The position numbers and the translations under genes are program-made. A stretch of 64,000 bases of DNA, taken from assembly GCA_028872955.1 (NCBI GenBank), contig JAGWNX010000004.1, forward strand, positions 26,075-90,074. The letters run 5' to 3'. This stretch comes from Acidobacteriota bacterium. GTDB lineage: Bacteria > Acidobacteriota > Terriglobia > Terriglobales > Acidobacteriaceae. Shown here piece after piece: positions 40,381-55,577 of this stretch (within the stretch, counting starts at the first letter, position 1; every line of letters starts with the position of its first letter). Below the pieces are notes generated by a model. It was not told the origin of the DNA, ran no database searches, and was given only the letters and a program-made list of their open reading frames with translations.

Positions 40381-40455
40381 GGCCAGATAGCTCAGTGGTA
40401 GAGCGCGGCCCTGAAAAGGCCGGCGTCGGCGGTTCGATCCCGTCTCTGGCCACCA
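40381..40455 (+). tRNA. tRNA-Phe (GAA)
   Basis: Acceptor stem GGCCAGA/TCTGGCC, anticodon arm CGGCC-CTGAAAA-GGCCG, GGTTCGATCC T-loop, encoded CCA. Confidence 0.97.
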
Positions 40456-40458
40456 TTA

Positions 40459-40521
40459 AATCAATAACTTAGCGGCGACCAGATTTAGCTCAAATTAGTC
40501 GAAGACACATATTGGACACAT
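40459..40521. promoter_or_regulatory. Att-site accessory sequences: IHF consensus site and GACACAT direct repeats
   Basis: AATCAATAACTTA (40459-40471) matches WATCAANNNNTTR. GACACAT occurs at 40504 and 40515, 11 bp apart. Confidence 0.55.
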
Positions 40522-40553
40522 TCTCAATACCAGACAGCACCTCTCAGTACCTG

Positions 40554-41690
40554 TCAGGCGGTCTGTTCTAACTTCTGTTGCCCAGTTTCCGCAATCTCCC
40601 TCCCCTCTGACTGCGGCTTTAGCTTGCCCCAAATTTCGCGGGATACACTGCCGGTCTTCACGATGTGCGCCCGAGCGAGGTCTGCATACCGTTCCGTCAT
40701 CTTGATGTTGGAATGCCCAAGCAGCTTCGAGAGCTCGTAAATATCACCGCCGGACATCATGTACCAGGACGCGAAGGTGTGACGCAGGTCGTGGAAACGA
40801 AAGTCTCGAATCTCTGCTCGTTCGAGCAGTTCACGGAGACTCTTGTCCGCACGCTGACGTCCACTTGTTGCGCCGGGCTCAGGGGGCAAAATCCGATCCT
40901 CTCCGAGGACAGCCGGATACCTTCGGATCTCCTCAGCGAGTTCGGGTGACAAGGGCACGTGACGTATCGTTCCTTTCTTAAGCTTTGCCCTCACCACGAT
41001 CAATCCCTCGTTGTAGAGAATGTCTCTCCACTCGAGACGAAAGATCTCCCCGCGCCGCATACCGGTTCCAACGGCAATGAGTACCAACAACCGCAGACGA
41101 AGATTCGTCTTGTTGATGTCCTTCGTGCCCTTCCGGTACATCCTCTCGTCGAGAGCGACCATTAATCTTGGAAACTCTTCTTCTGACAGGTAGCGCTTCC
41201 GAGTATCGTCGACATGTTCAACTTCCACCTGGTCGGCAGGGTTCCGGTCGATGCCGGTCACTGTCGCCCAGATGGTGGATGCCTTCCTCATCATGTGGTG
41301 CATGACGTGGAAGTGGCGCTCGGCTGTGTTTACGGCCAACTCACGAACATCCGTCAGATTGTCGTACCACTCCTGCACAGCCATTCCATCCACCTCTCGT
41401 ACGAACATTCGGCCAAGCGCGGCACGGATGCCCTCGACGATGCTCTTCTCTCGATCCGCAGACCTTTTCTTTACCCCGTATTGGGTCCAATACTTATCGA
41501 TCAGGTCGTCCATCCGGTAGTTAATTTGCTTCTTCACATCGAGGTGCCGGTTTTCAGCTCGAAGTGTGAGTTTCTTATCCTGAATTTTCTTTGCGAGTTT
41601 TGCCGAGCCGTGAACAATCACGCTCCGTGCGCGGCCTCCCTCTCTCCAACGGACCTTGTACAACTTTTCATCTAACTTTGTGACAGACAT
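40554..41690 (-). CDS. int: Tyrosine recombinase (phage-type integrase)
   Basis: TGMRRGE, RFHDLRHTFAS, LLGHSNIKMTERY; R/H-x-x-R/H/Y catalytic residues intact. Confidence 0.95.
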   Translation of the reverse strand: MSVTKLDEKLYKVRWREGGRARSVIVHGSAKLAKKIQDKKLTLRAENRHLDVKKQINYRMDDLIDKYWTQYGVKKRSADREKSIVEGIRAALGRMFVREVDGMAVQEWYDNLTDVRELAVNTAERHFHVMHHMMRKASTIWATVTGIDRNPADQVEVEHVDDTRKRYLSEEEFPRLMVALDERMYRKGTKDINKTNLRLRLLVLIAVGTGMRRGEIFRLEWRDILYNEGLIVVRAKLKKGTIRHVPLSPELAEEIRRYPAVLGEDRILPPEPGATSGRQRADKSLRELLERAEIRDFRFHDLRHTFASWYMMSGGDIYELSKLLGHSNIKMTERYADLARAHIVKTGSVSREIWGKLKPQSEGREIAETGQQKLEQTA

Positions 41691-42407: not shown

Positions 42408-43320
42408 GTCAATGCATGCTCTCTCCACAGGCCTAAACTCTGCAGGCTACTTCATCAACCCAGTGATGACGCAGGTCGTCTTCCTCGCGACACGACTGCA
42501 GAAGCCTCTCTTGCTGGAAGGTCCGGCCGGATCGGGCAAAACGCAGCTTGCCTTATCTGTCGCTAAAGCGGGCAGGACGCACATTGAACGATTGCAGTGC
42601 TACCAAGGCGTCACCGAGGCGCAGGCCATCGGTAGCTTCGACGCCGGGCTACAGCGTCTTTACCTCGAGTTCTCGAAGAATCAGCATTCCGACTGGCAAT
42701 CACTTCAAGCCAATCTCACTGGACGGGAGTTCTTCCGACCCGGACCGCTGATGCGCGCTCTCGAATGCGAACGGCCATGCGTCTTGCTGATCGACGAACT
42801 CGATAAGGTCGACGACGGCTTCGAGGCGATGCTGCTGGAAATCCTTTCAGCTTGGCAGCTCTCCATTCCCGAGTTCGGTACGGTACGAGCGAAGAGCATT
42901 CCTTTCGTAGTGCTCACCAGTAACGAGGAGAGGCGGCTAGGGGACCCGATCCGCAGACGGAGTCTCTATGTTCGGGTCGAGCATCCGACCCCAGAGCTCG
43001 AAGCCGACATCATCGCCAGCCGCACTCCTGAGGCGAAGGCCAGCTTCCATCGTGAAATTGCTGGCATCGCTCGATCCTTCCGAAACTACTCGCTCGAAAA
43101 GCCTCCCTCCGTCTCGGAGATGATCGATTTCGCGCGAGCTCTGCAGGTCTTAGGGACAAATCATGTCACCGAAGATTTACGCGATGTTCTTCTGCCATTC
43201 CTGGCAAAAACAGAGAAGGACCGCCGTCACCTAATGTTGCGGGAGGGCTTCAAGAGCCTGCTGAACGACGGTGCGAAATACGCGAAGGAACTTGCTTCGC
43301 CTGAGGGGGCTCTGCCATGA
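42400..43320 (+). CDS. MoxR/CoxD-type AAA+ ATPase
   Basis: LLLEGPAGSGKT, RLQCYQG, VLLIDELDK, VVLTSN, IRRR, PPSVSEMIDFARAL. Confidence 0.85.
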   Translation: MFESMHALSTGLNSAGYFINPVMTQVVFLATRLQKPLLLEGPAGSGKTQLALSVAKAGRTHIERLQCYQGVTEAQAIGSFDAGLQRLYLEFSKNQHSDWQSLQANLTGREFFRPGPLMRALECERPCVLLIDELDKVDDGFEAMLLEILSAWQLSIPEFGTVRAKSIPFVVLTSNEERRLGDPIRRRSLYVRVEHPTPELEADIIASRTPEAKASFHREIAGIARSFRNYSLEKPPSVSEMIDFARALQVLGTNHVTEDLRDVLLPFLAKTEKDRRHLMLREGFKSLLNDGAKYAKELASPEGALP

Positions 43321-43790
43321 AGCCTCTTTATGTTCTTCTGACTATCCTCTTTTCCTGCGCTGCCCAAGGGCAGACAGCTCGCGCCTTCTCCGAGCAGTGT
43401 GTGCAACGATATGCCTCCCTCTACCACATCGAGCCGGAAATAATCGCGGCCTTCATTGATGTGGAATCTGGCTGGAACCCGCGCGCCCTGTCTCCCAAAG
43501 GTGCCATGGGTCTCCTGCAACTCATGCCTGCAACAGCCACGCGCTTCGGGGCCTTTGACCCATTCAATCCAGAGCAGAACATAGCCGCCGGCACACGCTA
43601 CATCACCAGGTTAATGTGGGAGTTCCACGGCGATCTGCGGCTCGTTGCCGCAGCCTACAACGCCGGGGATAAGTGGGTGGGCAAGTGGCTCCTCGACTAT
43701 CGCAATCCCGACGTCGTTGCCTACGTCACCGCAGTCCGTAGGCGTTACATCCTCCGCCGTATGGCGGCATACCCACAGCCCAGGAGATAG
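43317..43790 (+). CDS. Lytic transglycosylase (SLT, VirB1-like)
   Basis: IDVESGWNP..SPKGAMGLLQLMP, AAAYNAG; signal peptide. Confidence 0.92.
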   Translation: MKPLYVLLTILFSCAAQGQTARAFSEQCVQRYASLYHIEPEIIAAFIDVESGWNPRALSPKGAMGLLQLMPATATRFGAFDPFNPEQNIAAGTRYITRLMWEFHGDLRLVAAAYNAGDKWVGKWLLDYRNPDVVAYVTAVRRRYILRRMAAYPQPRR

Positions 43791-43793
43791 ACC

Positions 43794-44723
43794 ATGAAAC
43801 TTCGTTGGCTCATTCCAATCGCTTTCCTGCTCCCCATACGGTCATTCGCTGCAGATGACCAGCATGGCCGTGTAACCACTCTCACTATCCAACCCGGTGC
43901 GATCACACAGCTCCATCTGCGACCAGAGTTCGAATCCGTCATTCACCTGCCGGAGGAGGTCACTTCCGTGGTCGTCGGTAGTCCAGGCTCCTTCCATGTG
44001 GAGCACAGCGAAGCTGAACCCGCCTTCGTCTACGTGAAGCCTGCGGTGCGCGCCGCGACGCAGAGCGATCTGCTTATCGCAATGAAGTCAGGCCAACACG
44101 TCATGCTGGAGCTGATCAGCGACGGCGATGGTGCCCCTGCGACGCAGGGTGTCGACTTCCTTCTGGACTACGAGCCCCGCAAGACGTTCGTCGTGTTTGC
44201 TGCGCCTCCGGAGTCGGATGGCTCGGCCTCATCATCTCGGCTGAGCGGGGTCAAAACGAATGGGAAGGCAACCTCTCTGTCTCCGATCGATCAGGCGCTC
44301 GCATTCCAGAGCAGCATCAATGCCCCGTCGTGGATGAGGTGGGATGGTCAGCAGATCCAGACGTCGCTTGGCGACATCCGGCAGTTGGGGAATCAGACAC
44401 TAATTGCATATTCGATCCTCAACGCGGGCGATCATGCGGTGGAGATTGTGGCGCCGCAGATCCAAATGGACGGTCGCAAGTCAAAGAAGAGCAAAGGCAA
44501 GAACATTCTCTCGGACCAGCTCCAGGTGCGAAGTTACCGGCTCACGGCTACGAGGCTTGAGCCCGGCGCGCGCGCCGATGGTGTTCTGCTCTTCGACCGG
44601 CCGAACTTCAAGTCGTCTATGGACAATCTCTTTCTTCAACTGGCGCAGGCGGATCAAGTCGACCGTCCGGTTCTTGTGAGGCTGCCGTTCACCCCACCCC
44701 TTGTCGCAAACAACAAGCACTAG
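43794..44723 (+). CDS. VirB9/TrbG/TraK-like secretion channel protein
   Basis: Signal peptide, ESVIHLPEEV.SVVVGSP..F.VE..VYVKP; lies directly before the VirB10-like gene. Confidence 0.6.
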   Translation: MKLRWLIPIAFLLPIRSFAADDQHGRVTTLTIQPGAITQLHLRPEFESVIHLPEEVTSVVVGSPGSFHVEHSEAEPAFVYVKPAVRAATQSDLLIAMKSGQHVMLELISDGDGAPATQGVDFLLDYEPRKTFVVFAAPPESDGSASSSRLSGVKTNGKATSLSPIDQALAFQSSINAPSWMRWDGQQIQTSLGDIRQLGNQTLIAYSILNAGDHAVEIVAPQIQMDGRKSKKSKGKNILSDQLQVRSYRLTATRLEPGARADGVLLFDRPNFKSSMDNLFLQLAQADQVDRPVLVRLPFTPPLVANNKH

Positions 44724-44737
44724 AGAGGAGCAGTTCT

Positions 44738-46003
44738 ATGAACCCGAATCAAAACGGTAATTTCCTAAATACAGAGTCCATGGAAGACCAGACTGTTCTT
44801 TTCGAACACTCAGAAACCCCGGCGAAATCGGAACCCGTCGCAGAACCACAAGAGGAGTCTCTGAAATGGGCAACGCGAGCCGATGCGCTGAAGACCGCGG
44901 CAACAGGTCGCAAACCTATTCTGCTGCTCGTCGGAAGCCTCGCAGCAGCAATTGTGTTGTTTGCGGTCACGAGCTTCGTCGGAAAGGTGCCCCACAGGAA
45001 AGTGCCGGCGCCTTCACAGAACAGCACTGAGAGTGCCGCACCCGCTAAACCCAAAGGGAGTGTCACACCTCTGATGGATACAGTGCGAAATCCCACCCAG
45101 AGCAACACCGCTGGACAGCTCACACCAGCCGATATCAACCGAACCAAGGCCAGCACAGGAACCCGGCCCACACCGACGTCCTCGCAGACGTCGTCGCGCC
45201 CGGCTTCCTCAACCGACACAACGCTGGCCTCGGTACCGCCCTTCGAATCCACGCAACAGCACTGGGAAGAACCGAGACCGTATGGCGACACGCAGGCGCC
45301 CCCACATCCTGCTGCTGCGGGGACACAGCAGAACCTGTTGAAAGAAGCTTCGCTTGTGTTCGTGAAGAAGTTGGAGCAGAACACCGCCAATAATGCGTCC
45401 GGGGGAACGAACAGCAATGACGTTACCCCAGAGCTGAACCTGACACCAGGGACGCGGGTTCAAGCGAGGCTTGAGACGCAGGCTTCAAGCGCTGTGACGG
45501 CACCGGTCGTCGCCGTCGTCGAATACACCTACTCTCTAGGCGATCGCATTGTGATCCCAGCGGGAGCCCGGGTCTACGGCCAGCTTCAGCAGGCCGATCG
45601 AAGTGGCGCGGTGAGTATCAAATTCAACGAGATCGAACTGTTGGACGGCAACCGGGAAAAGATCGAAGCGATCGGGACAAGCCTTGAACTGGGGCCGATC
45701 AAAGGGACGGTATCAGGGAAGAACACGGGGAAGAACTTCCTCGTGCGCACCGCCTCCGGAATTGGATCGGTCGCTGCGATGCTAGTGGGAAACAACACCA
45801 GCACTGCCTTCTCTCAGGATGACCTCATTCGTGAACGCATTGCGCAAAACATGGGCAATGCGGGCGATACGGAGATCATGAACATGGCCGTCACCAATCA
45901 CATCGTCGTTTCGTTGCCGGCGGACACGCCGATATACATCGTCTTCACTAAGCGTGAGGCGGCCTCGACACCCTCTCATCCTTCAACAAGCGCAAAACCA
46001 TAG
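44738..46003 (+). CDS. VirB10/TrbI/TraB-like protein
   Basis: Single TM helix, P/T/S-rich linker, PGTRVQARLET..PVVAVVE..IPAGARVYG C-terminal domain. Confidence 0.75.
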   Translation: MNPNQNGNFLNTESMEDQTVLFEHSETPAKSEPVAEPQEESLKWATRADALKTAATGRKPILLLVGSLAAAIVLFAVTSFVGKVPHRKVPAPSQNSTESAAPAKPKGSVTPLMDTVRNPTQSNTAGQLTPADINRTKASTGTRPTPTSSQTSSRPASSTDTTLASVPPFESTQQHWEEPRPYGDTQAPPHPAAAGTQQNLLKEASLVFVKKLEQNTANNASGGTNSNDVTPELNLTPGTRVQARLETQASSAVTAPVVAVVEYTYSLGDRIVIPAGARVYGQLQQADRSGAVSIKFNEIELLDGNREKIEAIGTSLELGPIKGTVSGKNTGKNFLVRTASGIGSVAAMLVGNNTSTAFSQDDLIRERIAQNMGNAGDTEIMNMAVTNHIVVSLPADTPIYIVFTKREAASTPSHPSTSAKP

Positions 46004-46316
46004 TGGTAGATGTTCAAGGGTCAGCATGAGCCTCAGCTTCGGCTGGGGCTTCACTTTGCCTAATTGTCCGAATAGTTGAAGCACCGTGCACGTTGCCCAA
46101 ATCAAGCGCTTCTTGATCATCGTGCAGAATGACGAATTGTTCCCCGGTATATTTCAATGCGCAGAATGACGGATTGTCGGGCTCGGTTCAGATTACATCG
46201 CCGAGGATGCCCCATCTATCGGGTATGCGGTGCTCAACCAGCCACACCTAAAAGATTGCTGGACCAGAATAGATACAGGACTGCGCTGTGAGCCCCTAAC
46301 GGCTCGACAAGGATAT

Positions 46317-46664
46317 TCAAGCCAGGTACTTCGAGACCTTATAAGCCACTGCCCCGATCACTTCCTTCCACTTCCAATCGATCTTTCCTTCGACTTTGAG
46401 GCGTCTGATTCCGCTTTCCTTCCATGCCTCTTCAATCGTCGGCGAGTATACGGAGAGTTCGAAGATCGTCATCGACCTCTGTGCACGCTCGGGCAGAGTA
46501 CGAATGTATTCTGACTCAAGTTCCTGCTTCAGCTCTGTCGCGCCGCTACGAATCGCAGCCTCTGAAATCGGGTCCGGGGGCAGTTGTTCAAGCAAGCGCA
46601 GAATCTCAGCACACTGCTTACCGATCAGTCGGAGCCTTTGGGACGCTTCTTCCTTCTTCATCGA
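46317..46664 (-). CDS. Hypothetical helical protein (115 aa)
   Basis: Open frame with protein-like composition in a lower-GC stretch. Confidence 0.55.
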   Translation of the reverse strand, partial: SMKKEEASQRLRLIGKQCAEILRLLEQLPPDPISEAAIRSGATELKQELESEYIRTLPERAQRSMTIFELSVYSPTIEEAWKESGIRRLKVEGKIDWKWKEVIGAVAYKVSKYLA

Positions 46665-46836
46665 ATAGTCAATCCCTATCAAGCCAGCTTCTTAAGTTTA
46701 CGGAACAAGAACGTTCGCCGCGGACTTCTACTACCGGATCGAAGCAGGACTTGCGACGGCAACCGAAACCAATCATCATGCACCGTGACTCCATTTTCCC
46801 GGTGGTGGGCCAATCTCCGCAATCATCGACCGTTCG

Positions 46837-47043
46837 TCAAGGTCTGTCATTGTGCACCGTGGCTAATTGTCCCGCCGCGTATGGCAATGTGCGTACTGCC
46901 GTATCTACCTCATCGATGAATCGATCTGCGCAATGACCAATTAGCCGTCGTTTTGTGTCACGCTGCATTGCGCCCGATTGTCCCTCCGCATCAAGCAATA
47001 TGCACTGCGCACCGTTTGTTGTCCGCATGTATCCAATCCGCAC
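46837..47043 (-). CDS. Possible small hypothetical protein (68 aa)
   Basis: GTG start with upstream AAAGGG; no recognisable motif. Confidence 0.3.
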   Translation of the reverse strand: MRIGYMRTTNGAQCILLDAEGQSGAMQRDTKRRLIGHCADRFIDEVDTAVRTLPYAAGQLATVHNDRP

Positions 47044-47215
47044 TATGACCCTTTCTAGAGCGCCGCTAGGGCATTTTCCAATGTTTTCCTAAATTTATAG
47101 GCGATTCACGTTCTCCGAATCATAGATCACCAGGACATTTGCTCCCCTTTTCCCATTTCTGCGGACCAGATTGGCCCCTCTCCATACTCTGAACGACGAT
47201 TTCCAAGTTCTCTTC

Positions 47216-47236
47216 GATTTGACCGAGTTTGCGTTT
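47216..47236 (+). promoter_or_regulatory. Third copy of the element-specific 21-bp motif, upstream of the pilin/virB4 operon
   Basis: GATTTGACCGAGTTTGCGTTT, starting 79 nt before ATG 47295. Confidence 0.7.
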
Positions 47237-47294
47237 GGCTCGATGTTTCTCTCGACACGGATGCCCAGAGCAGCCGAGTCCAGGAGAGATAGCT

Positions 47295-47723
47295 ATGACA
47301 ACCGCACTCACCTTTTGGCGGCCTGCTCGCAAATCCGCCAACTCCGTCTCCACCATTCAGCGCCCAAACAGCACCAGTTGGCCGCATCTCTTCCTGAAGA
47401 TCGCGCTCATGTTCATGCTCGTCGGCGCTTTCCTGCCCTTTGCCGCACACGCACAGAACCTCGGAACCTCTCCTCAGTTCGGGCAGGCGGTCCAGGGCCA
47501 GCAGGCCACAACCGTCGAGGGGACAGTTCTTAACATCGTGAACTGGGGCTGCAACGTGATTGCTCCGGTGATTGCGATTGCCTGCCTTGGCGTCGCCGGC
47601 TGGCACTTCAAGTCGGGTCGCGGCTACATGGGCTGGGGAGTGACAGGGGTCGCTTTGATGGTCATCTCTGGGCTGGGACGTATGGCCGAGGGCTTCATCA
47701 CCCAGGCCGGGTCGATTCAATAG
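47295..47723 (+). CDS. VirB2/TrbC-like pilin
   Basis: Long signal peptide ending AHA-Q, then a hydrophobic hairpin VNWGCNVIAP...ALMVISG; first gene of the virB-like operon. Confidence 0.65.
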   Translation: MTTALTFWRPARKSANSVSTIQRPNSTSWPHLFLKIALMFMLVGAFLPFAAHAQNLGTSPQFGQAVQGQQATTVEGTVLNIVNWGCNVIAPVIAIACLGVAGWHFKSGRGYMGWGVTGVALMVISGLGRMAEGFITQAGSIQ

Positions 47724-47734
47724 GGGCGACTGCG

Positions 47735-48397
47735 ATGCCTGTGCCGCAATTCCTTTCCGACCTGCTTCAACTGCTGTTTGACCTCGCGGTCCCAGCTGCG
47801 TTCTGCACGCTGGCGGCCGCGGGCGTCAGCCTGAGAGCAGAGGGCGGAACGAACTTTCACATTGACGGGAAGTTTGGGAAGTGGATTCTTTGGACTGTCG
47901 TTCTGTTGACGATTCCACAGATCCTTTCCTGGGTTGCGGCACAAGGCATCACCGTTCCATCCGCAAGTGGCTCGGTCGGCACGAGCTGGCTGGCGAGCAT
48001 CGAATCGCTCTTCAAGAACTTCGTGAACGACATTGTTGTCGCGAAGCTGGTTCCATTACTCGCTGCGTACTTCGTGCTCAAAGCGACACTCGACGGAGCT
48101 GCCGGAGAGAGTCCCCTCGGATCGATCGTTGCTGCTCTATTCCTGATGTCCATCAGTGCCACGATGCAGCTTTTCCAAGGTTGGAACTCGGGAGGAGAAT
48201 ATGCGACGACCGACATGCTTGGCTCGCTGTGGAACTACATCGCCGACAAGATCATGCCCTCTGCGGCCGGCCTTGCGTGTATTGGGGCGGTCATCAACTT
48301 CGTCCGTCATCGTCCCTGGACACGTTTGATCTTCGCTGCAATCGCATTCCTGAGCGTGACAGGACTTGTAAAGCTGTTTCAGGCCATGGCCGCTTAG
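47735..48397 (+). CDS. Membrane protein with three pilin-like modules
   Basis: Three hydrophobic hairpin units; the last (LWNYIADKIMP...AFLSVTG) clearly resembles the pilin. Confidence 0.7.
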   Translation: MPVPQFLSDLLQLLFDLAVPAAFCTLAAAGVSLRAEGGTNFHIDGKFGKWILWTVVLLTIPQILSWVAAQGITVPSASGSVGTSWLASIESLFKNFVNDIVVAKLVPLLAAYFVLKATLDGAAGESPLGSIVAALFLMSISATMQLFQGWNSGGEYATTDMLGSLWNYIADKIMPSAAGLACIGAVINFVRHRPWTRLIFAAIAFLSVTGLVKLFQAMAA

Positions 48398-48411
48398 AAA
48401 AGGAGAACCCG

Positions 48412-48867
48412 ATGAGTCTCGATGGAGCTATTACAAATCTCGCATCCTGGGGCGGCAACGTCATCATGCCAACGCTGGCGGGCGGTTTCTTTTCCTTCGC
48501 CGTGTACCGCTACAGCAAAGGCGGACCGTTCGAACAGCACCTCTACGGTGGATTCGCATCTCTCATGTGCTCCGGAATCCTCCGTGCTCTCGAGGGCTTT
48601 GTCCAGCACGCCGGACCAACCAGTGCGGACGGCTACTGGACGGCGCTGATGAGTCTCGTCAACTACACAGCCAATGTCATTCTGCCGGTTTTTGCGCTTA
48701 CGCAGCTCGCGGCAATGGCCCTTCATATGGGGGGAGTGCTCGACCAGATCTATCCGGGCTCGACATGGATTCGTAAGTTCGTGGCAGCGATCGGGGCCTT
48801 GATGGTCTCTGGCATCGTGCGTCTGGCCGAGTCGATGGTGACACAAGCGCACGGGATTGGAGGATGA
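48412..48867 (+). CDS. Membrane protein with two pilin-like modules
   Basis: AAGGAG SD; ASWGGNVIMP...SLMCSG and VNYTANVILP...ALMVSG units. Confidence 0.75.
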   Translation: MSLDGAITNLASWGGNVIMPTLAGGFFSFAVYRYSKGGPFEQHLYGGFASLMCSGILRALEGFVQHAGPTSADGYWTALMSLVNYTANVILPVFALTQLAAMALHMGGVLDQIYPGSTWIRKFVAAIGALMVSGIVRLAESMVTQAHGIGG

Positions 48868-48869
48868 CC

Positions 48870-49214
48870 ATGAGTCTCGATCTCACACCTGTTCATCGCA
48901 ACCTGCACACCAAAGTGACATTCCTGGGCCTCGAGTTCGAGGACCTGATCTTCGTGCTCGCCCTGGCAGCACTAATGAATCTGCTGGCTCATTTCGTCGG
49001 CGGAGAGAGCCACATCCTGGGCATGCCGCTCAACGTCTTCATGGAATTCGTCGTGCCTTTTCTGGCCGTGCCGTTCCTCATGCTCTTCAAGTACGGCAAG
49101 CCGAGGGGCTACCTCCTCGATCTTGTGCGCTCTGTCTTTGCCCCCAAGGCCTGGTGTGCACTTGAGCGAGATTCCGAACTGGTGCAGCCTTATCTCGCAG
49201 AAGAGGAGGAATGA
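48870..49214 (+). CDS. VirB3/TraL-like membrane protein
   Basis: TPVHRNL..TFLGLE, two TM helices, KYGKPRGYL; upstream of virB4. Confidence 0.6.
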   Translation: MSLDLTPVHRNLHTKVTFLGLEFEDLIFVLALAALMNLLAHFVGGESHILGMPLNVFMEFVVPFLAVPFLMLFKYGKPRGYLLDLVRSVFAPKAWCALERDSELVQPYLAEEEE

Positions 49215-49217
49215 GCG

Positions 49218-49415
49218 ATGCGAGCACACGTCACAGCACAGCCAGATGGAAGCATTCTCCTCCGCATGGATGTCGAGGCGGCACGGGCCACGTTTGCCAG
49301 TGTTGTCTTTGCCTCCCGATATAACGACGGCGTACGCGGTCTGGAGGAGATCGCGAAGCACGCCCTAGAAGACATACTGGAATCCACCGATCGGAGACAT
49401 GCGACATGCCGATGA
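49218..49415 (+). CDS. Small hypothetical protein (65 aa)
   Basis: GAGGAGG SD; fills the gap and overlaps the virB4 start. Confidence 0.55.
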   Translation: MRAHVTAQPDGSILLRMDVEAARATFASVVFASRYNDGVRGLEEIAKHALEDILESTDRRHATCR

Positions 49416-52054
49416 CCTATGCCGAACACGACAAGAAGATGAAAGCTCCCGCTATGTGCGAACTGTTGCCCCTCCGCGATCTGCCTGAGGGAGACAACGT
49501 GATCGTTCGCACGAACGGCTCATTCGTTGCGGGGTACGAGTTGAAGGGGGTGCTCTCGTACTTCGCGACGGATGGGGAGAGGAACCATGCGAAATCCTCG
49601 CTGGAGGCGCTGTTCCGCGGCATCCCCGACGTCAGCATGCGCGTACAGTTCCGCTACGAGATCGCGGAGCACCTCAACGGACTGATTGACGAGTACGTGC
49701 ACGCACAGCGAACCGATCAGGCGGAGATGATGGCGCTCGACGCCCACCGTGTCTGCAGATGGAGGGAGAAAGAGGCGGAGGGTGCGTACTTCCAGAATCG
49801 TCTCCACGTGTATTTCGTCTGGGACCCTCGGATCCATGCCAAGCTCTACCATTCGGTGGAACAGAATCGAAAGCTCGGCGGTTTCACTTTCAGCCAAAAG
49901 AAGGCCATCCAGAGAACACGCAAGGAACACGAAACGTATCTTGCCGAATTCGAGTCGATCCTTCGCGGTATTGAGAACTCCCTCGAGACCGAAGAAATCG
50001 GCCCACGCCGGCTGCTGACGCAGGAACTCTTCGAAGAGTTACAGTCGGCGCAGCATCCACGACGTCGCGATCGGAGGCCCTATATCCCAGGCGAGGAGAT
50101 GCTCTCGTATCGCAGCGCGCGGGATCAGGCCACCCATGCCAGCATCCTGAACGAAACCGAGAACTACCTCAATATCGACGGGTATCTGTACTCGGTTGTG
50201 AGCCTCAAGGAGCTGCCGGATGCGACCTTTCCTGGCATGTTGCAGAAGTTTTCGACACTAGGCTTTCCGTTGGTTATCAGCGGCCAGGTGGAGATTCCAG
50301 ACCAAGTGAAGATTCTGAAGGCGTATAAGAAGCGCCTCCAGAAGATGACCGCAGCGCAGAAGGACGCTAACGGAAACTTCAAGTCGAACCCGGAGGCCGA
50401 AGTTGCTCAGGCACAGCTCATTCAGGTGCAGCGCGACATCATCTCTTCCTCTTTGAAGACCGCGAAGTTGAGCCTCTCGGTAGTAGTGCGTACTTCCCAT
50501 GAAGCCGTCAGCTTCCGCGACCTAGAGTCGGCAGAGCGTGAGATCTCCAACCGAACACAAGAAGTCCTGAACGCTTTCACCCATATGAACGGGGCGCGTG
50601 GTGTCGTCGAAACCATTGCGAAGCGGCGCATCTTCATCGGGACCCTTCCAGGGATGGGTGAGACGGACAAGCGGGAGCAGGACATGCTTACCCCAAATGC
50701 TGCGGATCTGGTTCCGGTGGAGATGCCGTGGACAGGCACGCGAAAGAGCCCGCTGATGCTGTTCGAAACGCCGTACCGGCAGCTGATCCCGTACTCGATG
50801 TTCGATCCCGATCTGTCGGACGCCAATGGCCTCTTGATGGCAAAAACGGGTGGTGGCAAGACTCTGGCGGCCCAACAGATGCTCTTGATGGCTGCGCGCA
50901 ACAATGCCCGCGTCTCCATTCTCGAAAGCGGCGATTCCTATCGGCCCCTGGTTGAGCTGATGGGTGGCGAGATGGTCCAGATGTCGCTCGACAGCACACA
51001 GACGATCAACCCGTGGGATCTGCTGCATGGTGAGACGAAGCCATCGAACGACCAATTGGCATTCCTCAAGAATCTGACCCGCCACATGCTTGGGGAGAAC
51101 ACGCCACCTGACCTGGATATCGATCTGTTGGATAGCGTGCTGCTGGAGGCAATCACCTCCACGTACAAACGTTGCAGGGCCAAGAGCTCCAATCCAATAC
51201 CCCTCTACTCGGATCTCGCTGCGGAACTAGCCCACTGGCAGGACCGTGACAAGAATCAGAAGATCAATGAAATGGCACGCCTCGCGGCAATGAAGCTGCG
51301 CGCATGGGTCGATGACGGCCCCTATGCCAAGCTCTTCGATCGTCCTACGACCGTACGGCTCGACAGCCCGTGGCTCTATTTCAATGTGGAGAAGCTGAAG
51401 GATGATTCCCGGCTCGAACGTGCCATGAGCCTGAAGGTCGCTCATGCGGCGACTCATCGCGGCTCGGGGAGCGACGGCCTCCCGAACATCACGCTGCTCG
51501 ATGAGTGCTGGGCCATGCTCGAGTCGCCGATTCTTGCCTCCGTTGTCGTTCAGCTCTTCCGGACAGCACGCAAACGCTACGGCAGCGTATGGGGAATCAG
51601 TCAGACGCCGGAGGACTTCGTCGGAACGAAGGATAAGCCCAATCCCTTCGGCGCAGGCATCGTCAAGAATGCTTCCACCAAGATCATTGGCAAACAGCCC
51701 GGCGACATGACGACACACCGCGAGTACATGAACCTCAACGAAACGGCCATCAACCAAATCAAAGCCTTCGCGCAGCCGAAGAAGGGGCACAGGGCTGAGT
51801 TCCTGATCGCAATCGGTGAAAAGGCCGAGTCAACGCATGTCATCCGGATCGCGCCGACACCGGTGGACTACTGGATCACGACGACTTACCCGCGGGAACG
51901 CGTGTATCGGAAGTGGTGGCTGAATGCCCACACAGACGTTCCTCTTTTGTCTGCCTATGAGGGCCTTGCAAGCCTCTATCCACGCGGCCTGGCCGATCTT
52001 GCGCCTCTTCCTGAGGAGATGTCCGGAGAGGTTCTGGAGGTGAAAACCCTATGA
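49406..52054 (+). CDS. virB4: VirB4 family conjugal transfer ATPase
   Basis: Walker A AKTGGGKT, INPWD, Walker B LLDECW, RTARKRYG..ISQ; 882 aa. Confidence 0.88.
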   Translation: MPMTYAEHDKKMKAPAMCELLPLRDLPEGDNVIVRTNGSFVAGYELKGVLSYFATDGERNHAKSSLEALFRGIPDVSMRVQFRYEIAEHLNGLIDEYVHAQRTDQAEMMALDAHRVCRWREKEAEGAYFQNRLHVYFVWDPRIHAKLYHSVEQNRKLGGFTFSQKKAIQRTRKEHETYLAEFESILRGIENSLETEEIGPRRLLTQELFEELQSAQHPRRRDRRPYIPGEEMLSYRSARDQATHASILNETENYLNIDGYLYSVVSLKELPDATFPGMLQKFSTLGFPLVISGQVEIPDQVKILKAYKKRLQKMTAAQKDANGNFKSNPEAEVAQAQLIQVQRDIISSSLKTAKLSLSVVVRTSHEAVSFRDLESAEREISNRTQEVLNAFTHMNGARGVVETIAKRRIFIGTLPGMGETDKREQDMLTPNAADLVPVEMPWTGTRKSPLMLFETPYRQLIPYSMFDPDLSDANGLLMAKTGGGKTLAAQQMLLMAARNNARVSILESGDSYRPLVELMGGEMVQMSLDSTQTINPWDLLHGETKPSNDQLAFLKNLTRHMLGENTPPDLDIDLLDSVLLEAITSTYKRCRAKSSNPIPLYSDLAAELAHWQDRDKNQKINEMARLAAMKLRAWVDDGPYAKLFDRPTTVRLDSPWLYFNVEKLKDDSRLERAMSLKVAHAATHRGSGSDGLPNITLLDECWAMLESPILASVVVQLFRTARKRYGSVWGISQTPEDFVGTKDKPNPFGAGIVKNASTKIIGKQPGDMTTHREYMNLNETAINQIKAFAQPKKGHRAEFLIAIGEKAESTHVIRIAPTPVDYWITTTYPRERVYRKWWLNAHTDVPLLSAYEGLASLYPRGLADLAPLPEEMSGEVLEVKTL

Positions 52055-52878
52055 AGACCACTCGGATTCCTCAGCTCATCAGCTCACTCGGAAATCGCTC
52101 GTTCAAGACGCTCCTGCCGAAGACCAGGCCGAAGTGCATCGCCGTTATGGCCGGGCTCGTCGGGATTGCGCTCGCCTTGCCTACGCCGGCACATGCCGAT
52201 ATTCTAGGCGTCTTTGATTCGATCTTTTCGACCATTCAGAGTGACATGGGTGCATCCCTGAAGGCCATCAACCAGATGACGCAGGAGATCCAGCAGCTGT
52301 ATCAGGAAACCGTGTGGCCGCTCGCGATGGTGAATCAGGCGCGTGGGTTTGTCTCTAATTCCATCACCAGCTACCGCAGCTACATGACGCAGGTCTTTCA
52401 GCTTTCTTCCCCAAGTGCGACATTGGCAAACCCACAGCAACTGGAGACGATTCTGCATAGCCGGACCAGTACTCAGATTCCGGCACTCCAAACCAGTTTC
52501 ACGACGAACTATGGAAGTGTCCCCGCAGTCAATGTCGCCTCGCCACAGGATCGCGTGATGATCGACATCGACGATGCGCTTGGGCAGGAAAACCTTAAGA
52601 CCACACTCATCGCCGACCAAGGACAGGACCTGGTACTTGCCACGGCGAATCAGATGGAGAATCAGGTTGCGGTCAGTGCACCTGGCTCCACTCCTTTCCT
52701 TACGGCACAGGCACAAGTTGCCAATCTTCGCTGCCAGGCTTTCATGCAGAAGATGCTCGCTGCGGAACTGCGGCAAGAGGCGGGGCGCATCGCGCACGAC
52801 AACGTCCTCATCAAGCGGCGTGCCACTTCAGCCGGCAACCTAAACCAATTTGTGTCGGGGTCCCTGACTCACCAGTAA
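52051..52878 (+). CDS. Secreted VirB5/TrbJ-like protein 1
   Basis: Signal ending AHA-D, helical and Q-rich, positioned between virB4 and virB6-like genes. Confidence 0.55.
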   Translation: MKTTRIPQLISSLGNRSFKTLLPKTRPKCIAVMAGLVGIALALPTPAHADILGVFDSIFSTIQSDMGASLKAINQMTQEIQQLYQETVWPLAMVNQARGFVSNSITSYRSYMTQVFQLSSPSATLANPQQLETILHSRTSTQIPALQTSFTTNYGSVPAVNVASPQDRVMIDIDDALGQENLKTTLIADQGQDLVLATANQMENQVAVSAPGSTPFLTAQAQVANLRCQAFMQKMLAAELRQEAGRIAHDNVLIKRRATSAGNLNQFVSGSLTHQ

Positions 52879-52889
52879 AGGAGGCAATA

Positions 52890-53792
52890 ATGCCAGACCT
52901 GAAGCGTATTACCGACAAAATCCGGCGCCCACTCTTCTGGAAGCGTACGTCTCCACCGGAAACAAAAGCCATCTCCAGCGGAGCGACGTCACAGTCTTCC
53001 GACCGGCGTCGCAAGTGGTACGCGCCTACGTTCCTCAAGACAGCGCCCCTTCTGTTAGTGACGGCTCTGTTTGCGCCGAAGGCAGCACACGGGCAGTTCG
53101 GAATCGATCTCGCAGCAATCCTCGCAGGGTTATCCAAGGTGGAGACCCTCATGAACAAGTATGTTGCGGCTCCGCTGAAGACGATCAATCAGGCGCAGCA
53201 GAGTATCAGCAGCTACGAACAAGAGGTCGTCTATCCGATTACCGCGATCAATCAGGCAAAAAGCTCCGTAACTCAGTTTGAGAACCAGTTCAGCCAGATC
53301 AGCACGATGTTTCGTGTCAATGTATCGAGCGCCACGTTGCCGCAGTCGCAGAGTCTCGAGACGATGCTGCTTTCCCGCAATACCAGCAATGTTGCCTCGG
53401 TCTCGCCGCAGTTCCAGAACGTCTACGGTGTCGTCATGGCTCAGAACGCGGCGTCCCCCGAAGTCCGCAACATGACGGACATGACCGATGCACAGGCGCA
53501 GGACGCTATGAAGCGTGCCATCGCCATCGACGCCTTGGCGGATGCCGAACTCGCGCAAGCCGACAAGATGGGGCAACAGATCGCAACTGCGGCACCGGGG
53601 AGCGCGCCCATCCTCGAAGCAGAGGCCGACGTGTGGCTTGTGCGAGCGAATGCCTATACCCAGGCCGCACTCGCTGAGTTGATGCGTACGCGCGGCATCG
53701 ACCTTGCGAACCAAAGCAAGCGTGCGAAGCTCGGTGCTTCCGACAACACCAGCAATAGCACCTTGATCAATGGATCTCTCACCCAGAGGTAG
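52890..53792 (+). CDS. Secreted VirB5/TrbJ-like protein 2 (paralog of the previous gene)
   Basis: Signal ending AHG-Q; shares ATL..Q.LET.L.SR and APGS.P.L.A.A blocks with 52051. Confidence 0.55.
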   Translation: MPDLKRITDKIRRPLFWKRTSPPETKAISSGATSQSSDRRRKWYAPTFLKTAPLLLVTALFAPKAAHGQFGIDLAAILAGLSKVETLMNKYVAAPLKTINQAQQSISSYEQEVVYPITAINQAKSSVTQFENQFSQISTMFRVNVSSATLPQSQSLETMLLSRNTSNVASVSPQFQNVYGVVMAQNAASPEVRNMTDMTDAQAQDAMKRAIAIDALADAELAQADKMGQQIATAAPGSAPILEAEADVWLVRANAYTQAALAELMRTRGIDLANQSKRAKLGASDNTSNSTLINGSLTQR

Positions 53793-53798
53793 TCGGCC

Positions 53799-55577
53799 AT
53801 GATATCCCTATTCCATCCCGCCACCGCCGCACTCGCGCTCTTTCAGTCGACGCAACTGAGTGTCTTCGAGCGCTTTCTGACGCAGGCGGTCACTGGTATC
53901 GACTCGACAAGTATCACTGCCGGGATGCAGAAGGCCGCTTATGTGGTCCTGTTGATTGGGTTCTTGTGGCAGGTATATCAGTCAGCGCTGCACGGCGGGG
54001 ACGTGCGTGGACTCGGCACCAACCTGATCAAATATGTCGTCACGGCAATCGTGGTGATGAACTATCACACCGTTTTTACCTCGATCAATCAGGGCTTTGT
54101 GAACGCCGGCAACTGGATTAACAGCGCATCCGGCGCTACCAGTCTCTTTGAAAACTGGGCCAGTGACCTCAAAACACAGTTCAGTCAGGTTGGATTCCAG
54201 AAGCTTTGGGGATTGGTAACAGCCGATCTACCCGGTCTCATCGATGCGCTCCTGATCATCGTTGCCTATATTCTGTATCCAGTCGTCATCGTCATCTTCG
54301 GCTTTTTCTACATGCTGTACGGATCGATCCTCTACATCTTTGGGCCGATCGTGATCGCGCTTATGCCGCTCGGTGCCACAAATCGGCTGGCAAAATCCTA
54401 TGCCGAGAACGTCTTCATCTGGAACGCGTGGCCTATCCTCTACGGCGGTTTCGGTGCTCTTCTCAGTGCCGTTCAGATGGGTCAGATCGGACAGATGCTC
54501 AACTCGAACAACTTCCTCGGTGGACTGGGCAATCTCGAAGGCTCGATTCTGATCGGCTTGGCCAGCATCATCTATTCGCTCGCTATTGCAGTTATCCCAT
54601 TCATCGCGAAAAAGATTGTGAGCGGCGATGTCGGTAGTACGGCCAGTACATTGCTTGGAGCTGCAGCGACGGCCCTTACTGCCGGAGTCGCAGCAACCGA
54701 AGGTGTAGCAGCGGGACTTGCAAGCACTTCAGGACAAGCCGTCTCTGGCGGAGGAAGAGCCGCCGCGAGCAGTGTACCGGCCGGTAATTCATCCGCAGCC
54801 ACTGGATCGAATCAGCCCGCAGTTCCTCAGCGAATGCAGCCAGGAACTGGTGAACAGCAACGTTCGATGACTAGTACCAGCGCAGCCACACCGGCGACAT
54901 CACCCTCGCTTCCTTCATCGTTCCCTTCGACTCAAGGAGAAGTTGTCGCGGAGGGTATTCGTGGCGGTCTCGAGTCTGCTATCGATCAAACTTCGAAGAA
55001 CGAAGCGGGTGTCCCATCCCACTCTGCGGCATCCTCAAGTAACAGGGGTAATGGAACGACTACAGCCAAACCTACAGATGACGGCACAGCCTCGCCATCG
55101 CGAGGTACCACATCCCCGAAGCCCTCGCACCATAAGGGAAATGGTCCCTCAGCCGGCCTTATGCGGCCCCATGGCCTGGCTACATGGGGTGCATACCACG
55201 CTGCTCGACTCGCCACTCAGGGAGCTGTCGGTGGCGCCCGTGCTGTGGGTGCCACTGCAAAAGGTGTTACCAACACCATCGCGAATCCCGTCAAAACGGC
55301 TGGTCAGGTGGGTACGAAGGCTGGTCAGATCTCGGGAAACGTAGTGAATGCTGCCGAGAAAACTGCAGCGGTTTCCGAACAAATCGCAAATGGCGTAACG
55401 CACCCTCGCAAAACGGTGGGTGCTGGTGCTCAGGCTATGGCAGATGCAGCAAGAACCGCTGTCTCCAATGCATCGTCTACAGTTCGCGGAAGCGCATCAG
55501 CCATGAAAACGAATTTCTCCCAAGCCTACGAAAAGACCCGTGTCGGAGAGATGAGCGACGACAAGGAATCCGCATAG
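53799..55577 (+). CDS. VirB6/TrbL-like polytopic membrane protein with long S/T/A-rich tail
   Basis: Five to six TM helices, GPIVIALMP..TNRLAKSY, low-complexity C-terminal half. Confidence 0.7.
   Translation: MISLFHPATAALALFQSTQLSVFERFLTQAVTGIDSTSITAGMQKAAYVVLLIGFLWQVYQSALHGGDVRGLGTNLIKYVVTAIVVMNYHTVFTSINQGFVNAGNWINSASGATSLFENWASDLKTQFSQVGFQKLWGLVTADLPGLIDALLIIVAYILYPVVIVIFGFFYMLYGSILYIFGPIVIALMPLGATNRLAKSYAENVFIWNAWPILYGGFGALLSAVQMGQIGQMLNSNNFLGGLGNLEGSILIGLASIIYSLAIAVIPFIAKKIVSGDVGSTASTLLGAAATALTAGVAATEGVAAGLASTSGQAVSGGGRAAASSVPAGNSSAATGSNQPAVPQRMQPGTGEQQRSMTSTSAATPATSPSLPSSFPSTQGEVVAEGIRGGLESAIDQTSKNEAGVPSHSAASSSNRGNGTTTAKPTDDGTASPSRGTTSPKPSHHKGNGPSAGLMRPHGLATWGAYHAARLATQGAVGGARAVGATAKGVTNTIANPVKTAGQVGTKAGQISGNVVNAAEKTAAVSEQIANGVTHPRKTVGAGAQAMADAARTAVSNASSTVRGSASAMKTNFSQAYEKTRVGEMSDDKESA

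What the first reader, a model, noticed from the sequence alone, without database searches (positions are those of the whole stretch)
47295..48867. Six VirB2-like pilin modules in three genes (1+3+2), including pilin concatemers
Seen: the mature part of 47295 (VLNIVNWGCNVIAP...ALMVISGLGRMAEGFITQA) aligns with both halves of 48412 (ITNLASWGGNVIMP...SLMCSGILRALEGFV and LMSLVNYTANVILP...ALMVSGIVRLAESMVTQA). It also aligns with the last unit of 47735 (LGSLWNYIADKIMP...FLSVTGLVKLFQAM). The first two units of 47735 are weaker matches. Modules are joined by short G/S/T-rich linkers, and only 47295 has a signal peptide. Established: VirB2/TrbC pilins are normally single hairpin modules made as a propilin. 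Inference: these are polyproteins cut into minor pilins, or fused modules forming a pilus base or mixed filament.
Basis: partly seen in the sequence, partly recalled or inferred. Interest (0 to 1): 0.68.

Follow-up and report, generated by a model that had tools for sequence, protein, structure and literature searches.

The report
Fused pilin-like hairpins, acidobacterial conjugation element
A mobile DNA element of soil Acidobacteria has, where other conjugation machines have one small pilus-subunit gene, three genes holding one, three and two copies of the same two-helix membrane hairpin; this fixed 1+3+2 layout is not described in the papers I could search, and it may show how such pili are started or anchored.

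Summary
Genes 47295-47723, 47735-48397 and 48412-48867 lie in the virB2 slot, directly before a VirB3-like gene and virB4. They belong to an integrative conjugative element inserted at tRNA-Phe.

- **Modules:** Four hairpin modules (A, B3, C1, C2) are clearly homologous (hhalign 98-99.8%). B2 is homologous with good support (90-96%; controls at most 3.4%). B1 is probably homologous (80-90% to A and C1).
- **Leader:** Only the first gene has a leader, 54 residues long and ending AHA|Q.
- **Conservation:** The 1+3+2 layout is kept in about 80 Acidobacteriaceae loci and in six lineages down to 27% identity. Modules group by position, not by lineage, so the fusions are old.
- **Selection:** dN/dS is 0.04-0.09, linkers included.
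- **Topology:** Charges put every hairpin in the membrane orientation of a mature pilin.
- **Link to TrbC/VirB2:** This rests on gene position, leader and topology. Sequence does not show it (Pfam 13.7 of 27.9 bits; hhalign 22%).

I found no conserved cleavage site and no element-encoded S26 peptidase, so a polyprotein is unlikely. My best reading is one major pilin plus two uncleaved fused accessory subunits that nucleate or anchor the pilus. It is a new variant of a known kind.

The parts
47295..47723 (+). P0001, single-module propilin. Leader residues 1-54 (47295-47456) end in AHA|Q. The conserved mature N-terminal segment is 47457-47522. Hairpin A is 47523-47702 and the C-tail is 47703-47720.
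   Evidence: Searches show the conserved A-x-A|QNLG site and the motif N..NW.GNVI.P..A...GRG...SG..RL.E; mature part 94% identical over 69 loci, dN/dS 0.014-0.025.
47735..48397 (+). P0002, leaderless protein of three hairpins. B1 is 47735-47941, linker 47942-47986, B2 47987-48181, linker 48182-48214, B3 48215-48394.
   Evidence: B3 98-98.9% hhalign to A, C1 and C2; B2 90-96%; B1 80-90% to A and C1; three helix-loop-helix units. K/R lie in or at the edge of the loops, none in the linkers; dN/dS 0.04-0.085.
48412..48867 (+). P0003, leaderless protein of two hairpins. C1 is 48412-48603, linker 48604-48639, C2 48640-48864.
   Evidence: z 7.5-15.7; 99.5-99.8% to A and to each other; helices 3-35, 41-66, 72-106, 119-146; 412 relatives, all 'hypothetical', no Pfam domain.
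48864..49214 (+). VirB3-like small two-helix membrane protein. Its start overlaps the stop of P0003.
   Evidence: It has no Pfam match. Its homologue is fused in frame to VirB4 in relative L121. The motif PVSRNL...GLE.ED is conserved.
49406..52054 (+). VirB4/TraC-type ATPase.
   Evidence: TIGR02746 E=4e-49, TIGR00929 E=2e-45, both far below the curated cut-offs. P-loop_TraG E=2.5e-15.
43317..46003 (+). Upstream T4SS genes: SLT lytic transglycosylase (43317-43790), VirB9/CagX-like (43794-44723), VirB10/TrbI-like (44738-46003).
40381..41690 (.). Left end of the element: tRNA-Phe (40381-40455, + strand) and a tyrosine integrase (40554-41690, - strand). GC falls from about 64% to about 56% here.

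Best explanation
The three genes are old paralogues of one T4SS pilin-type membrane hairpin.

P0001 is the major propilin. It has a 54-residue leader, and the host signal peptidase I would cut it at AHA|Q. That would leave an 88-residue subunit with both ends in the periplasm and a basic loop (KSGRG) in the cytoplasm.

P0002 (three hairpins) and P0003 (two hairpins) have no leader. Each hairpin starts and ends on the periplasmic side, so head-to-tail fusion keeps every hairpin in the same orientation as the mature pilin. The short, acidic, K/R-free N-tails and linkers can cross the membrane without a signal peptide.

I propose that they stay uncleaved and act as low-copy partners of the pilin at the VirB3/VirB4/VirB6 inner-membrane platform. 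They would offer pre-joined pilin-like surfaces on which P0001 starts to polymerise, or by which the pilus base is held.

Shown here: homology of the modules, predicted topology, strict conservation of the 1+3+2 layout, purifying selection on the linkers, and placement in the virB2 slot of one operon.

Inferred: that P0001 forms a pilus, that B and C are not cleaved, and that they nucleate or anchor the pilus.
For: - **Module homology:**
- **Position:** the virB2 slot, tightly packed with the VirB3-like gene and virB4, with no terminator between them. A VirB3-VirB4 fusion in a relative supports the VirB3 assignment.
- **Topology:** intra-hairpin loops hold 1.2-3 K/R in five of six modules. In B2 the lysines sit at the end of helix 1. 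N-tails, linkers and C-tails hold about 0-0.15 K/R and are neutral or acidic.
- **Fixed layout:** A, B1-B2-B3 and C1-C2 are found in about 80 Acidobacteriaceae loci. They are also found in six lineages whose C protein is only 27-40% identical.
- **Old fusions:** in a tree, modules group by position and not by lineage (6 label changes where 5 is the minimum; shuffled mean 27.7). B1 and B2 are each monophyletic at 99/97 and 98/99.
- **Selection:** linkers are as constrained as helices (dN/dS 0.04-0.05 against 0.05-0.085).
- **Major subunit:** the mature single pilin changes 3-4 times more slowly (dN 0.03 against 0.10-0.135). That fits a subunit constrained on all faces.
- **No protease:** no S26 peptidase lies on the element's contig.
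Against: - No sequence or fold link to any experimentally known pilin.
- The structure models have modest confidence, and a helical hairpin is too simple for a fold search to identify.
- No expression or protein data.
- Cleavage by a host protease, or at a site that is not conserved in sequence, cannot be excluded.
- The loop of B2 is acidic, and B1 is only weakly module-like, so P0002 may have moved to another role.
- Some diverged lineages insert an unrelated small membrane gene between B and C, so the set is not wholly fixed.
Confidence: 0.5

Rival explanations
1. Polyproteins. P0002 and P0003 are cut in their linkers after membrane insertion. This gives five extra free pilin-like subunits (minor pilins) that are built into a mixed filament.
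For: - Each module ends in a Q.G..G-like tail resembling the C-terminus of the single pilin.
- Linkers are short and G/S/T-rich.
- In the window's copy, B1 ends with ...SWVAA|QG, which resembles a signal-peptidase site.
- Strong constraint on the linkers could reflect a recognition site.
Against: - The VAA|QG-like site is not conserved in diverged B proteins (WFSNSGVS, WLVNESIP, WLSSEGVE).
- C-family linkers share no A-x-A motif.
- No S26/TraF-type peptidase lies on the element's contig.
- No lineage was found with the modules as separate genes. That would be expected if free subunits were the active form. The single-module C1 proteins I read are frameshift artefacts.
Confidence: 0.12
2. Pilin-derived inner-membrane parts that never enter the filament. 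Possible roles are chaperones or holders of the membrane pilin pool (as TraQ serves F-propilin), a part of the translocation channel, or entry exclusion.
For: - They have no leader and are more hydrophobic and polytopic (4 and 6 helices).
- The B and C modules lack the conserved 22-residue N-terminal segment of the mature pilin.
- They evolve faster than A.
- B1 and B2 have lost the SG..RL.E motif.
Against: - A separate VirB6/TrbL-like gene (E=0.0013) and a VirB8/TraE-like gene already exist.
- C1, C2 and B3 keep nearly the whole pilin motif, including the helix-1 proline and the R/E pair of helix 2. That suggests they still make pilin-type contacts.
- This reading overlaps with the best explanation, since anchoring at the base is also an inner-membrane role.
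Confidence: 0.25
3. Not pilins at all. They would be an element-specific family of small membrane proteins whose likeness to VirB2 is convergent (two helices and a basic loop). The element would then make no VirB2-type pilus.
For: - All sequence tests against TrbC/VirB2 fail at the usual thresholds.
- In Pfam scans TrbC appears no more often than unrelated membrane families (4 of 26 against 5 of 26 for E1-E2_ATPase).
- This T4SS is itself very divergent. Every part scores at or far below the curated cut-offs.
Against: - The long leader, the mature size, the hairpin and the gene order small-hairpin / VirB3-like / VirB4 are the signature of T4SS pilins in every diderm class (established knowledge; PMC12857230).
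- Reviews state that nearly all Gram-negative T4SSs need a pilin-like subunit (PMC12857230), and no other candidate is visible in the operon.
- The weak hhalign match of A to TrbC covers the full length in register.
Confidence: 0.08

Closest known systems
VirB2/TrbC-type conjugative pilins (T-pilin of the VirB system, TrbC of RP4, TrwL of R388; Pfam PF04956)
   Same: A small propilin with an unusually long leader. Two hydrophobic helices joined by a short basic loop. The gene lies directly before virB3 and virB4. The mature N-terminus is Gln.
   Different: No significant sequence similarity (13.7 of 27.9 bits; hhalign 22%). Five of the six hairpins are covalently joined (3+2) and have no leader. 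No TraF-type maturation peptidase is seen.
Arrays of divergent VirB2 paralogue genes (Bartonella Trw trwL copies, Anaplasma virB2 paralogues, Patescibacteria arrays of 2-11 pilin genes; PMC12102498, PMC12857230)
   Same: Several sequence-divergent pilin-type hairpins encoded side by side next to virB4.
   Different: In those arrays each pilin is a separate gene. In the pathogens the copies vary and are thought to serve antigenic or host-range variation. Here the hairpins are fused, their number is fixed, each position is orthologous across lineages, and all are under strong purifying selection.
Two VirB2-like genes per system in other T4SS classes (Tfc9/Tfc10 of MPF-G, TraQ/TraR of MPF-I, as grouped in PMC12102498)
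   Same: More than one pilin-like small membrane protein is a regular part of some conjugation machines.
   Different: Those are single-hairpin proteins. I did not test any relation to them, because the CONJScan profiles are not available here.
Priming complexes of minor pilins in type II secretion and type IV pili (analogy only; from my own knowledge)
   Same: Low-copy paralogues of the major subunit that start assembly.
   Different: An unrelated fold and machine. Those minor pilins are separate polypeptides.

Membership tests
TrbC/VirB2 pilin (Pfam PF04956) | Sequence score at or above the family's gathering threshold | tested here: not met
   P0001 scores 13.7 bits against a cut-off of 27.9, E=0.073. 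P0002 and P0003 have no hit. 4 of 26 relatives match below threshold, best E=0.0045. The six-frame search of the genome does not list the gene.
TrbC/VirB2 pilin (Pfam PF04956) | Profile-profile similarity to bona fide family members | tested here: inconclusive
   hhalign of the A-module family against 13 acidobacterial TrbC proteins that pass the Pfam cut-off gives 22% probability, P about 1e-3, over 66 columns in register. The other modules give at most 2.3%. Reversed controls give at most 3.4%.
TrbC/VirB2 pilin (Pfam PF04956) | Propilin with a long leader and a signal-peptidase site; mature subunit of about 70-90 residues | tested here: met
   Met for P0001 only: a 54-residue leader, a conserved A-x-A|QNLG site and an 88-residue mature part. 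P0002 and P0003 have no leader.
TrbC/VirB2 pilin (Pfam PF04956) | Two hydrophobic helices joined by a short positively charged loop, both ends on the periplasmic side | tested here: met
   Hydropathy, AlphaFold2 secondary structure and charge distribution. The loop of B2 is acidic.
TrbC/VirB2 pilin (Pfam PF04956) | Gene placed directly upstream of virB3-virB4 in the T4SS operon | tested here: met
   A VirB3-like/VirB4 fusion in a relative supports the assignment.
TrbC/VirB2 pilin (Pfam PF04956) | Polymerises with phospholipid into an extracellular pilus | not testable with these tools
   Needs purification or cryo-EM. Fold searches of the models were uninformative.
VirB2 paralogue gene arrays (Bartonella, Anaplasma, Patescibacteria) | Each paralogue is a separate gene | tested here: not met
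   Five of the six hairpins are fused as 3+2 and have no leader. The fusion is fixed in all loci examined.
VirB6/TrbL polytopic platform protein | Match to PF04610, or to the only polytopic VirB6-type protein of the locus | tested here: not met
   P0002 has no Pfam match. A separate 592-residue TrbL/VirB6-like gene lies at 53799-55577 (E=0.0013). The fold search of the P0002 model found nothing with E below 1.
Polyprotein precursor | Conserved cleavage site in the linkers and a cognate protease | tested here: not met
   No shared motif in B or C linkers across diverged members. No S26 peptidase on the element's contig. Other protease classes were not searched.

The most novel reading that the evidence does not exclude
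One P0002 (three hairpins) and one P0003 (two hairpins) together supply exactly five pilin-like hairpins. Five is the number of subunits in one layer of the five-start conjugative pili solved so far (from my own knowledge). On this reading the pair forms a single, covalently pre-joined, asymmetric first layer. That layer would template polymerisation of the major pilin, either below the two VirB5-position proteins at the tip or on the VirB6 platform at the base. This would explain why the counts 3 and 2 never change across the family. It would be the first defined nucleator of a T4SS pilus.
Probability: 0.12. Interest if true: 0.85.

Novelty: new variant of a known kind. Interest (0 to 1): 0.6.

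Why it matters
How a conjugative pilus is started and held at the inner-membrane platform is still a model and has not been shown. The review I read says the VirB6-platform model remains to be tested (PMC12857230).

A machine with pilin-type hairpins permanently joined in fixed numbers is a natural experiment on which pilin-pilin contacts matter at the start of assembly. The joined neighbours say which subunits must lie side by side.

The element is also common. I found 129 tblastn-confirmed places in genomes, and several genomes hold more than one copy, including cultured strains of Granulicella, Telmatobacter, Acidicapsa and Silvibacterium. It is probably a main route of gene exchange in soil Acidobacteriaceae, where conjugation has hardly been studied.

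All three proteins are 'hypothetical' with no Pfam family, so the report also gives them a name.

Tried and rejected
- **Family libraries:** Pfam and NCBIfam scans of the three proteins and of 26 and 21 diverse relatives gave only sub-threshold noise.
- **Solved structures:** profile searches of PDB sequences with the pilin and the two-module families found no pilin.
- **Fold search:** Foldseek of both AlphaFold2 models against the PDB gave best E of 0.4 and 1.2, with generic helical bundles. This neither supports nor refutes a pilin or a permease fold.
- **TrbC in the genome:** a search for PF04956 in the window's own genome did not list the gene.
- **R388 as yardstick:** accession BR000038 is not in the plasmid collection. 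I used 13 acidobacterial TrbC proteins instead.
- **A hit outside the family:** the only one in 301 genomes of the phylum (G285) lies in an unrelated 415-residue polytopic protein, so I rejected it.
- **Free-standing C1 modules:** 46 'C1-only' representatives looked like them. The 24 I read are frameshifted or chimeric metagenome calls.
- **First dN/dS for P0001:** it used too few ungapped pairs, so I redid it on 69 loci.
- **Literature:** four searches found pilin gene arrays but no fused T4SS pilins and no description of this element.
Full report
**1. Setting**

The window changes composition at about 40 kb, from about 64% to about 56% GC. A tRNA-Phe gene lies at that point (40381-40455), followed by a tyrosine integrase (40554-41690, minus strand; Pfam Phage_integrase E=3e-32). 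From there to the window's end runs a very divergent type IV secretion (conjugation) gene set:

| Coordinates | Gene | Evidence |
|---|---|---|
| 42394 | AAA+ ATPase | |
| 43317 | SLT transglycosylase | |
| 43794 | CagX/VirB9-like | |
| 44738 | TrbI/VirB10-like | |
| 47295-48867 | the three genes of the finding | |
| 48864 | 116-residue two-helix protein | |
| 49406 | VirB4/TraC ATPase (TIGR02746 E=4e-49) | |
| 52051, 52890 | two paralogous secreted proteins | |
| 53799 | TrbL/VirB6-like (E=0.0013) | |
| 55605 | TraE/VirB8-like | |
| 59450 | second CagX-like | |
| 60575 | coupling protein | |

This is an integrative conjugative element (ICE). Relatives named by their sources are all Acidobacteriota, mostly Acidobacteriaceae: Granulicella rosea, Silvibacterium bohemicum, Telmatobacter bradus, Acidicapsa dinghuensis, and Edaphobacter and Terracidiphilus MAGs.

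**2. The observation**

They are packed with 11-nt and 14-nt spacers. The stop of the third overlaps the start of the next gene (ATGA). No terminator-like site lies between them.

I cut the proteins into the six proposed units: A (P0001 mature part), B1-B3 (P0002) and C1-C2 (P0003). Local alignment scores against 500 shuffles:

| Pair | z |
|---|---|
| A~C1 | 15.7 |
| A~C2 | 11.1 |
| B3~C2 | 10.6 |
| C1~C2 | 7.5 |
| B3~C1 | 5.9 |
| B2~B3 | 3.8 |
| B1 with any | chance level |

I then built family alignments from 80 genomic loci, from diverse representatives and from six diverged loci. Profile-profile comparison gave the following:

- A, B3, C1 and C2 match each other at 98-99.8% probability.
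- B2 matches A at 95% (67 columns, in register), B3 at 96%, C2 at 93% and C1 at 90%.
- B1 matches C1 at 90% and A at 80%.

Controls of the same composition behave differently. Column-reversed profiles never exceed 3.4%, and the neighbouring VirB3-like two-helix family does not exceed 9.7%. So four modules are certain, B2 is well supported and B1 is probable.

All six share a proline in helix 1. A, C1 and C2 share the motif N..NW.GNVI.P..A ... G ... SG..RL.E, and B3 shares it in weaker form.

AlphaFold2 gives four helices for P0003 (3-35, 41-66, 72-106, 119-146; pLDDT 69). For P0002 it gives three helix-loop-helix units separated by low-confidence linkers (pLDDT 64).

Only P0001 has a leader. 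It is 54 residues long, with a hydrophobic core at 29-53 and a conserved A-x-A|QNLG site.

**3. Conservation**

- **Family size.** A profile of the four clear modules finds 393 cluster representatives (E<=0.001) among 1.84 billion proteins.
- **Module content.** Classified with module-specific HMMs, the 149 listed representatives are A alone, C1-C2, or B1-B2-B3, apart from fragments.
- **Artefacts.** The 46 apparent 'C1-only' proteins look like frameshifted or chimeric metagenome calls. The 24 I read all run on in a wrong frame or into unrelated sequence.
- **Close relatives.** All 80 genomic loci with enough flank keep the three genes in the same order, at 70-94% identity.
- **Distant relatives.** Six further lineages keep pilin (126-163 aa), three-hairpin protein (227-258 aa), two-hairpin protein (152-174 aa), VirB3-like and VirB4. 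Their two-hairpin protein is only 27-40% identical to the window's.
- **Variations.** Four of these lineages insert one unrelated small membrane gene between B and C. In one the VirB3-like gene is fused to virB4. That fusion is known from other systems (PMC12102498) and supports calling the 116-residue protein VirB3-like.
- **Age of the fusions.** In a tree of 42 modules from seven lineages, modules group by position and not by lineage. There are 6 label changes where 5 is the minimum, against a shuffled mean of 27.7 (0 of 200 shuffles as low). B1 and B2 are each monophyletic at 99/97 and 98/99, and C1 and C2 are sisters. The fusions therefore predate the spread of the family.
- **Taxonomic range.** In an even sample of 301 genomes of the phylum, the family was found only in the window's taxonomic family (4 genomes, the window's own included). 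One hit elsewhere proved spurious.

**4. Selection**

Synonymous sites are saturated (dS>1.4). dN/dS is 0.05-0.085 for the B and C hairpins and 0.04-0.05 for the linkers of P0002. The linkers are therefore not free spacers. The mature single pilin is the most constrained part: 94% identity over 69 loci, dN 0.03 and dN/dS 0.014-0.025. The B and C hairpins have dN of 0.10-0.135.

**5. Topology**

Across the family alignments, lysine and arginine concentrate in the intra-hairpin loops or at their edges (1.2-3 per loop). The N-tails, linkers and C-tails carry almost none (0-0.15) and are neutral or acidic. By the positive-inside rule (established knowledge), each hairpin has both ends in the periplasm and its loop in the cytoplasm. 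That is the orientation of a mature VirB2-type pilin stored in the inner membrane. Because a hairpin begins and ends on the same side, joining hairpins head to tail keeps all of them in that orientation. The exception is B2, whose loop is acidic and whose lysines sit at the end of helix 1.

**6. Is it VirB2/TrbC?**

Not by sequence.

- Pfam PF04956 gives 13.7 bits against a cut-off of 27.9.
- Only 4 of 26 relatives match below threshold, no more than unrelated membrane families do.
- A six-frame search of the genome with PF04956 does not list the gene.
- As a yardstick I took 13 TrbC proteins from other Acidobacteriota genomes that pass the Pfam cut-off. hhalign of the A family against them gives 22% (P about 1e-3). 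The match covers the full length in register, which is a hint and no more.
- PDB sequence searches and Foldseek searches of both models found nothing meaningful.

The pilin reading rests on the long leader, the mature size, the hairpin with a basic loop, and the gene order hairpin / VirB3-like / VirB4. These features define the function across T4SS classes whose pilins are not alignable with one another.

**7. Mechanism**

*Best reading (confidence 0.5).* P0001 is the major pilin. P0002 and P0003 are uncleaved, pilin-derived accessory subunits. They insert without a leader and offer pre-joined pilin-type faces at the VirB3/VirB4/VirB6 platform, either to start polymerisation or to hold the base of the filament.

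*Polyprotein (0.12).* I find no support for it:

- Linker sequences share no cleavage motif across diverged members.
- The signal-peptidase-like VAA|QG after B1 in the window is not conserved.
- The element's contig carries no S26/TraF-type peptidase.
- I found no lineage with split genes.

*Inner-membrane role without entry into the filament (0.25).* This could be a pilin chaperone or a channel part. It overlaps with the best reading and cannot be separated from it by computation.

*Convergent, not a pilin (0.08).* This remains possible because no sequence link to a known pilin exists.

*A speculative point.* Three plus two is five, the number of subunits per layer in solved five-start conjugative pili (from my own knowledge). 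B and C could form one pre-joined first layer. I give this 0.12. The geometry of 9-18-residue linkers was not tested.

**8. What is known**

Reviews and surveys describe arrays of separate, divergent virB2 genes in Bartonella Trw, Anaplasma and Patescibacteria, and two VirB2-like genes in the MPF-G and MPF-I systems (PMC12102498, PMC12857230). Four literature searches found no fused T4SS pilins and no description of this acidobacterial element. An older survey knew only one acidobacterial T4SS, of the MPF-T type (PMC3548315).

Earlier unchecked notes of this scan report the same 1+3+2 family in two other genomes, and fused pilin hairpins in CPR bacteria and Clostridia. These are leads, not evidence. 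They suggest that fusion of pilin hairpins has arisen more than once.

**9. Limits**

- There are no expression or protein data.
- The structure models have modest confidence, and I could not run multimer models.
- MPF class profiles were not available.

**10. Verdict**

This is a new variant of a known kind. I score interest at 0.6.

Noticed in passing
L121:3471-6471 (ENA metagenome scaffold): In this diverged relative the VirB3-like protein is fused in frame to VirB4, giving a 1047-residue product. In the window they are separate genes (48864-49214 and 49406-52054).
   Followed up: partly
L114:5733-6056; L119:2744-3004; L121:2528-3004; L122:2071-2412: Four diverged lineages carry one extra small membrane gene (86-158 aa) between the three-hairpin and two-hairpin genes. 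It matches none of the module HMMs convincingly, and the window lacks it.
   Followed up: partly
window 52051-52878 and 52890-53792: Two paralogous proteins of 275 and 300 residues, 34% identical (E=1e-35), each with an N-terminal hydrophobic segment. They lie directly after virB4, where VirB5/TrbJ sits in other systems, and have no Pfam match. L117 has three genes of similar size (269-285 aa) at that place; I did not compare them.
   Followed up: partly
window 46003-47295: A 1.3-kb gap separates virB10 from the pilin gene. It holds an antisense ORF (46317-46682, 121 aa). Relative L114 has almost no gap here, and L117/L118 instead carry a 681-residue AAA+ gene at this place.
   Followed up: no
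P0262 (152 aa, metagenome protein): This protein joins a B1-like N-terminal hairpin directly to an A-type pilin hairpin. It is either a real recombinant or an assembly chimera.
   Followed up: no
L019 and L023 (Telmatobacter bradus); L044 and L070 (Acidicapsa dinghuensis); several contigs of MAGs WY4.bin103 and SMAG_U13992: Several genomes hold two or more copies of this element's pilin operon, so related ICEs coexist in one host.
   Followed up: no
G123, G134, G062 and others: 10 of 151 sampled Acidobacteriota genomes also carry ordinary TrbC/VirB2 pilins that pass the Pfam cut-off. One of them, G062, also has the 1+3+2 family. Canonical MPF-T-like systems and this divergent system therefore coexist in the phylum.
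   Followed up: partly
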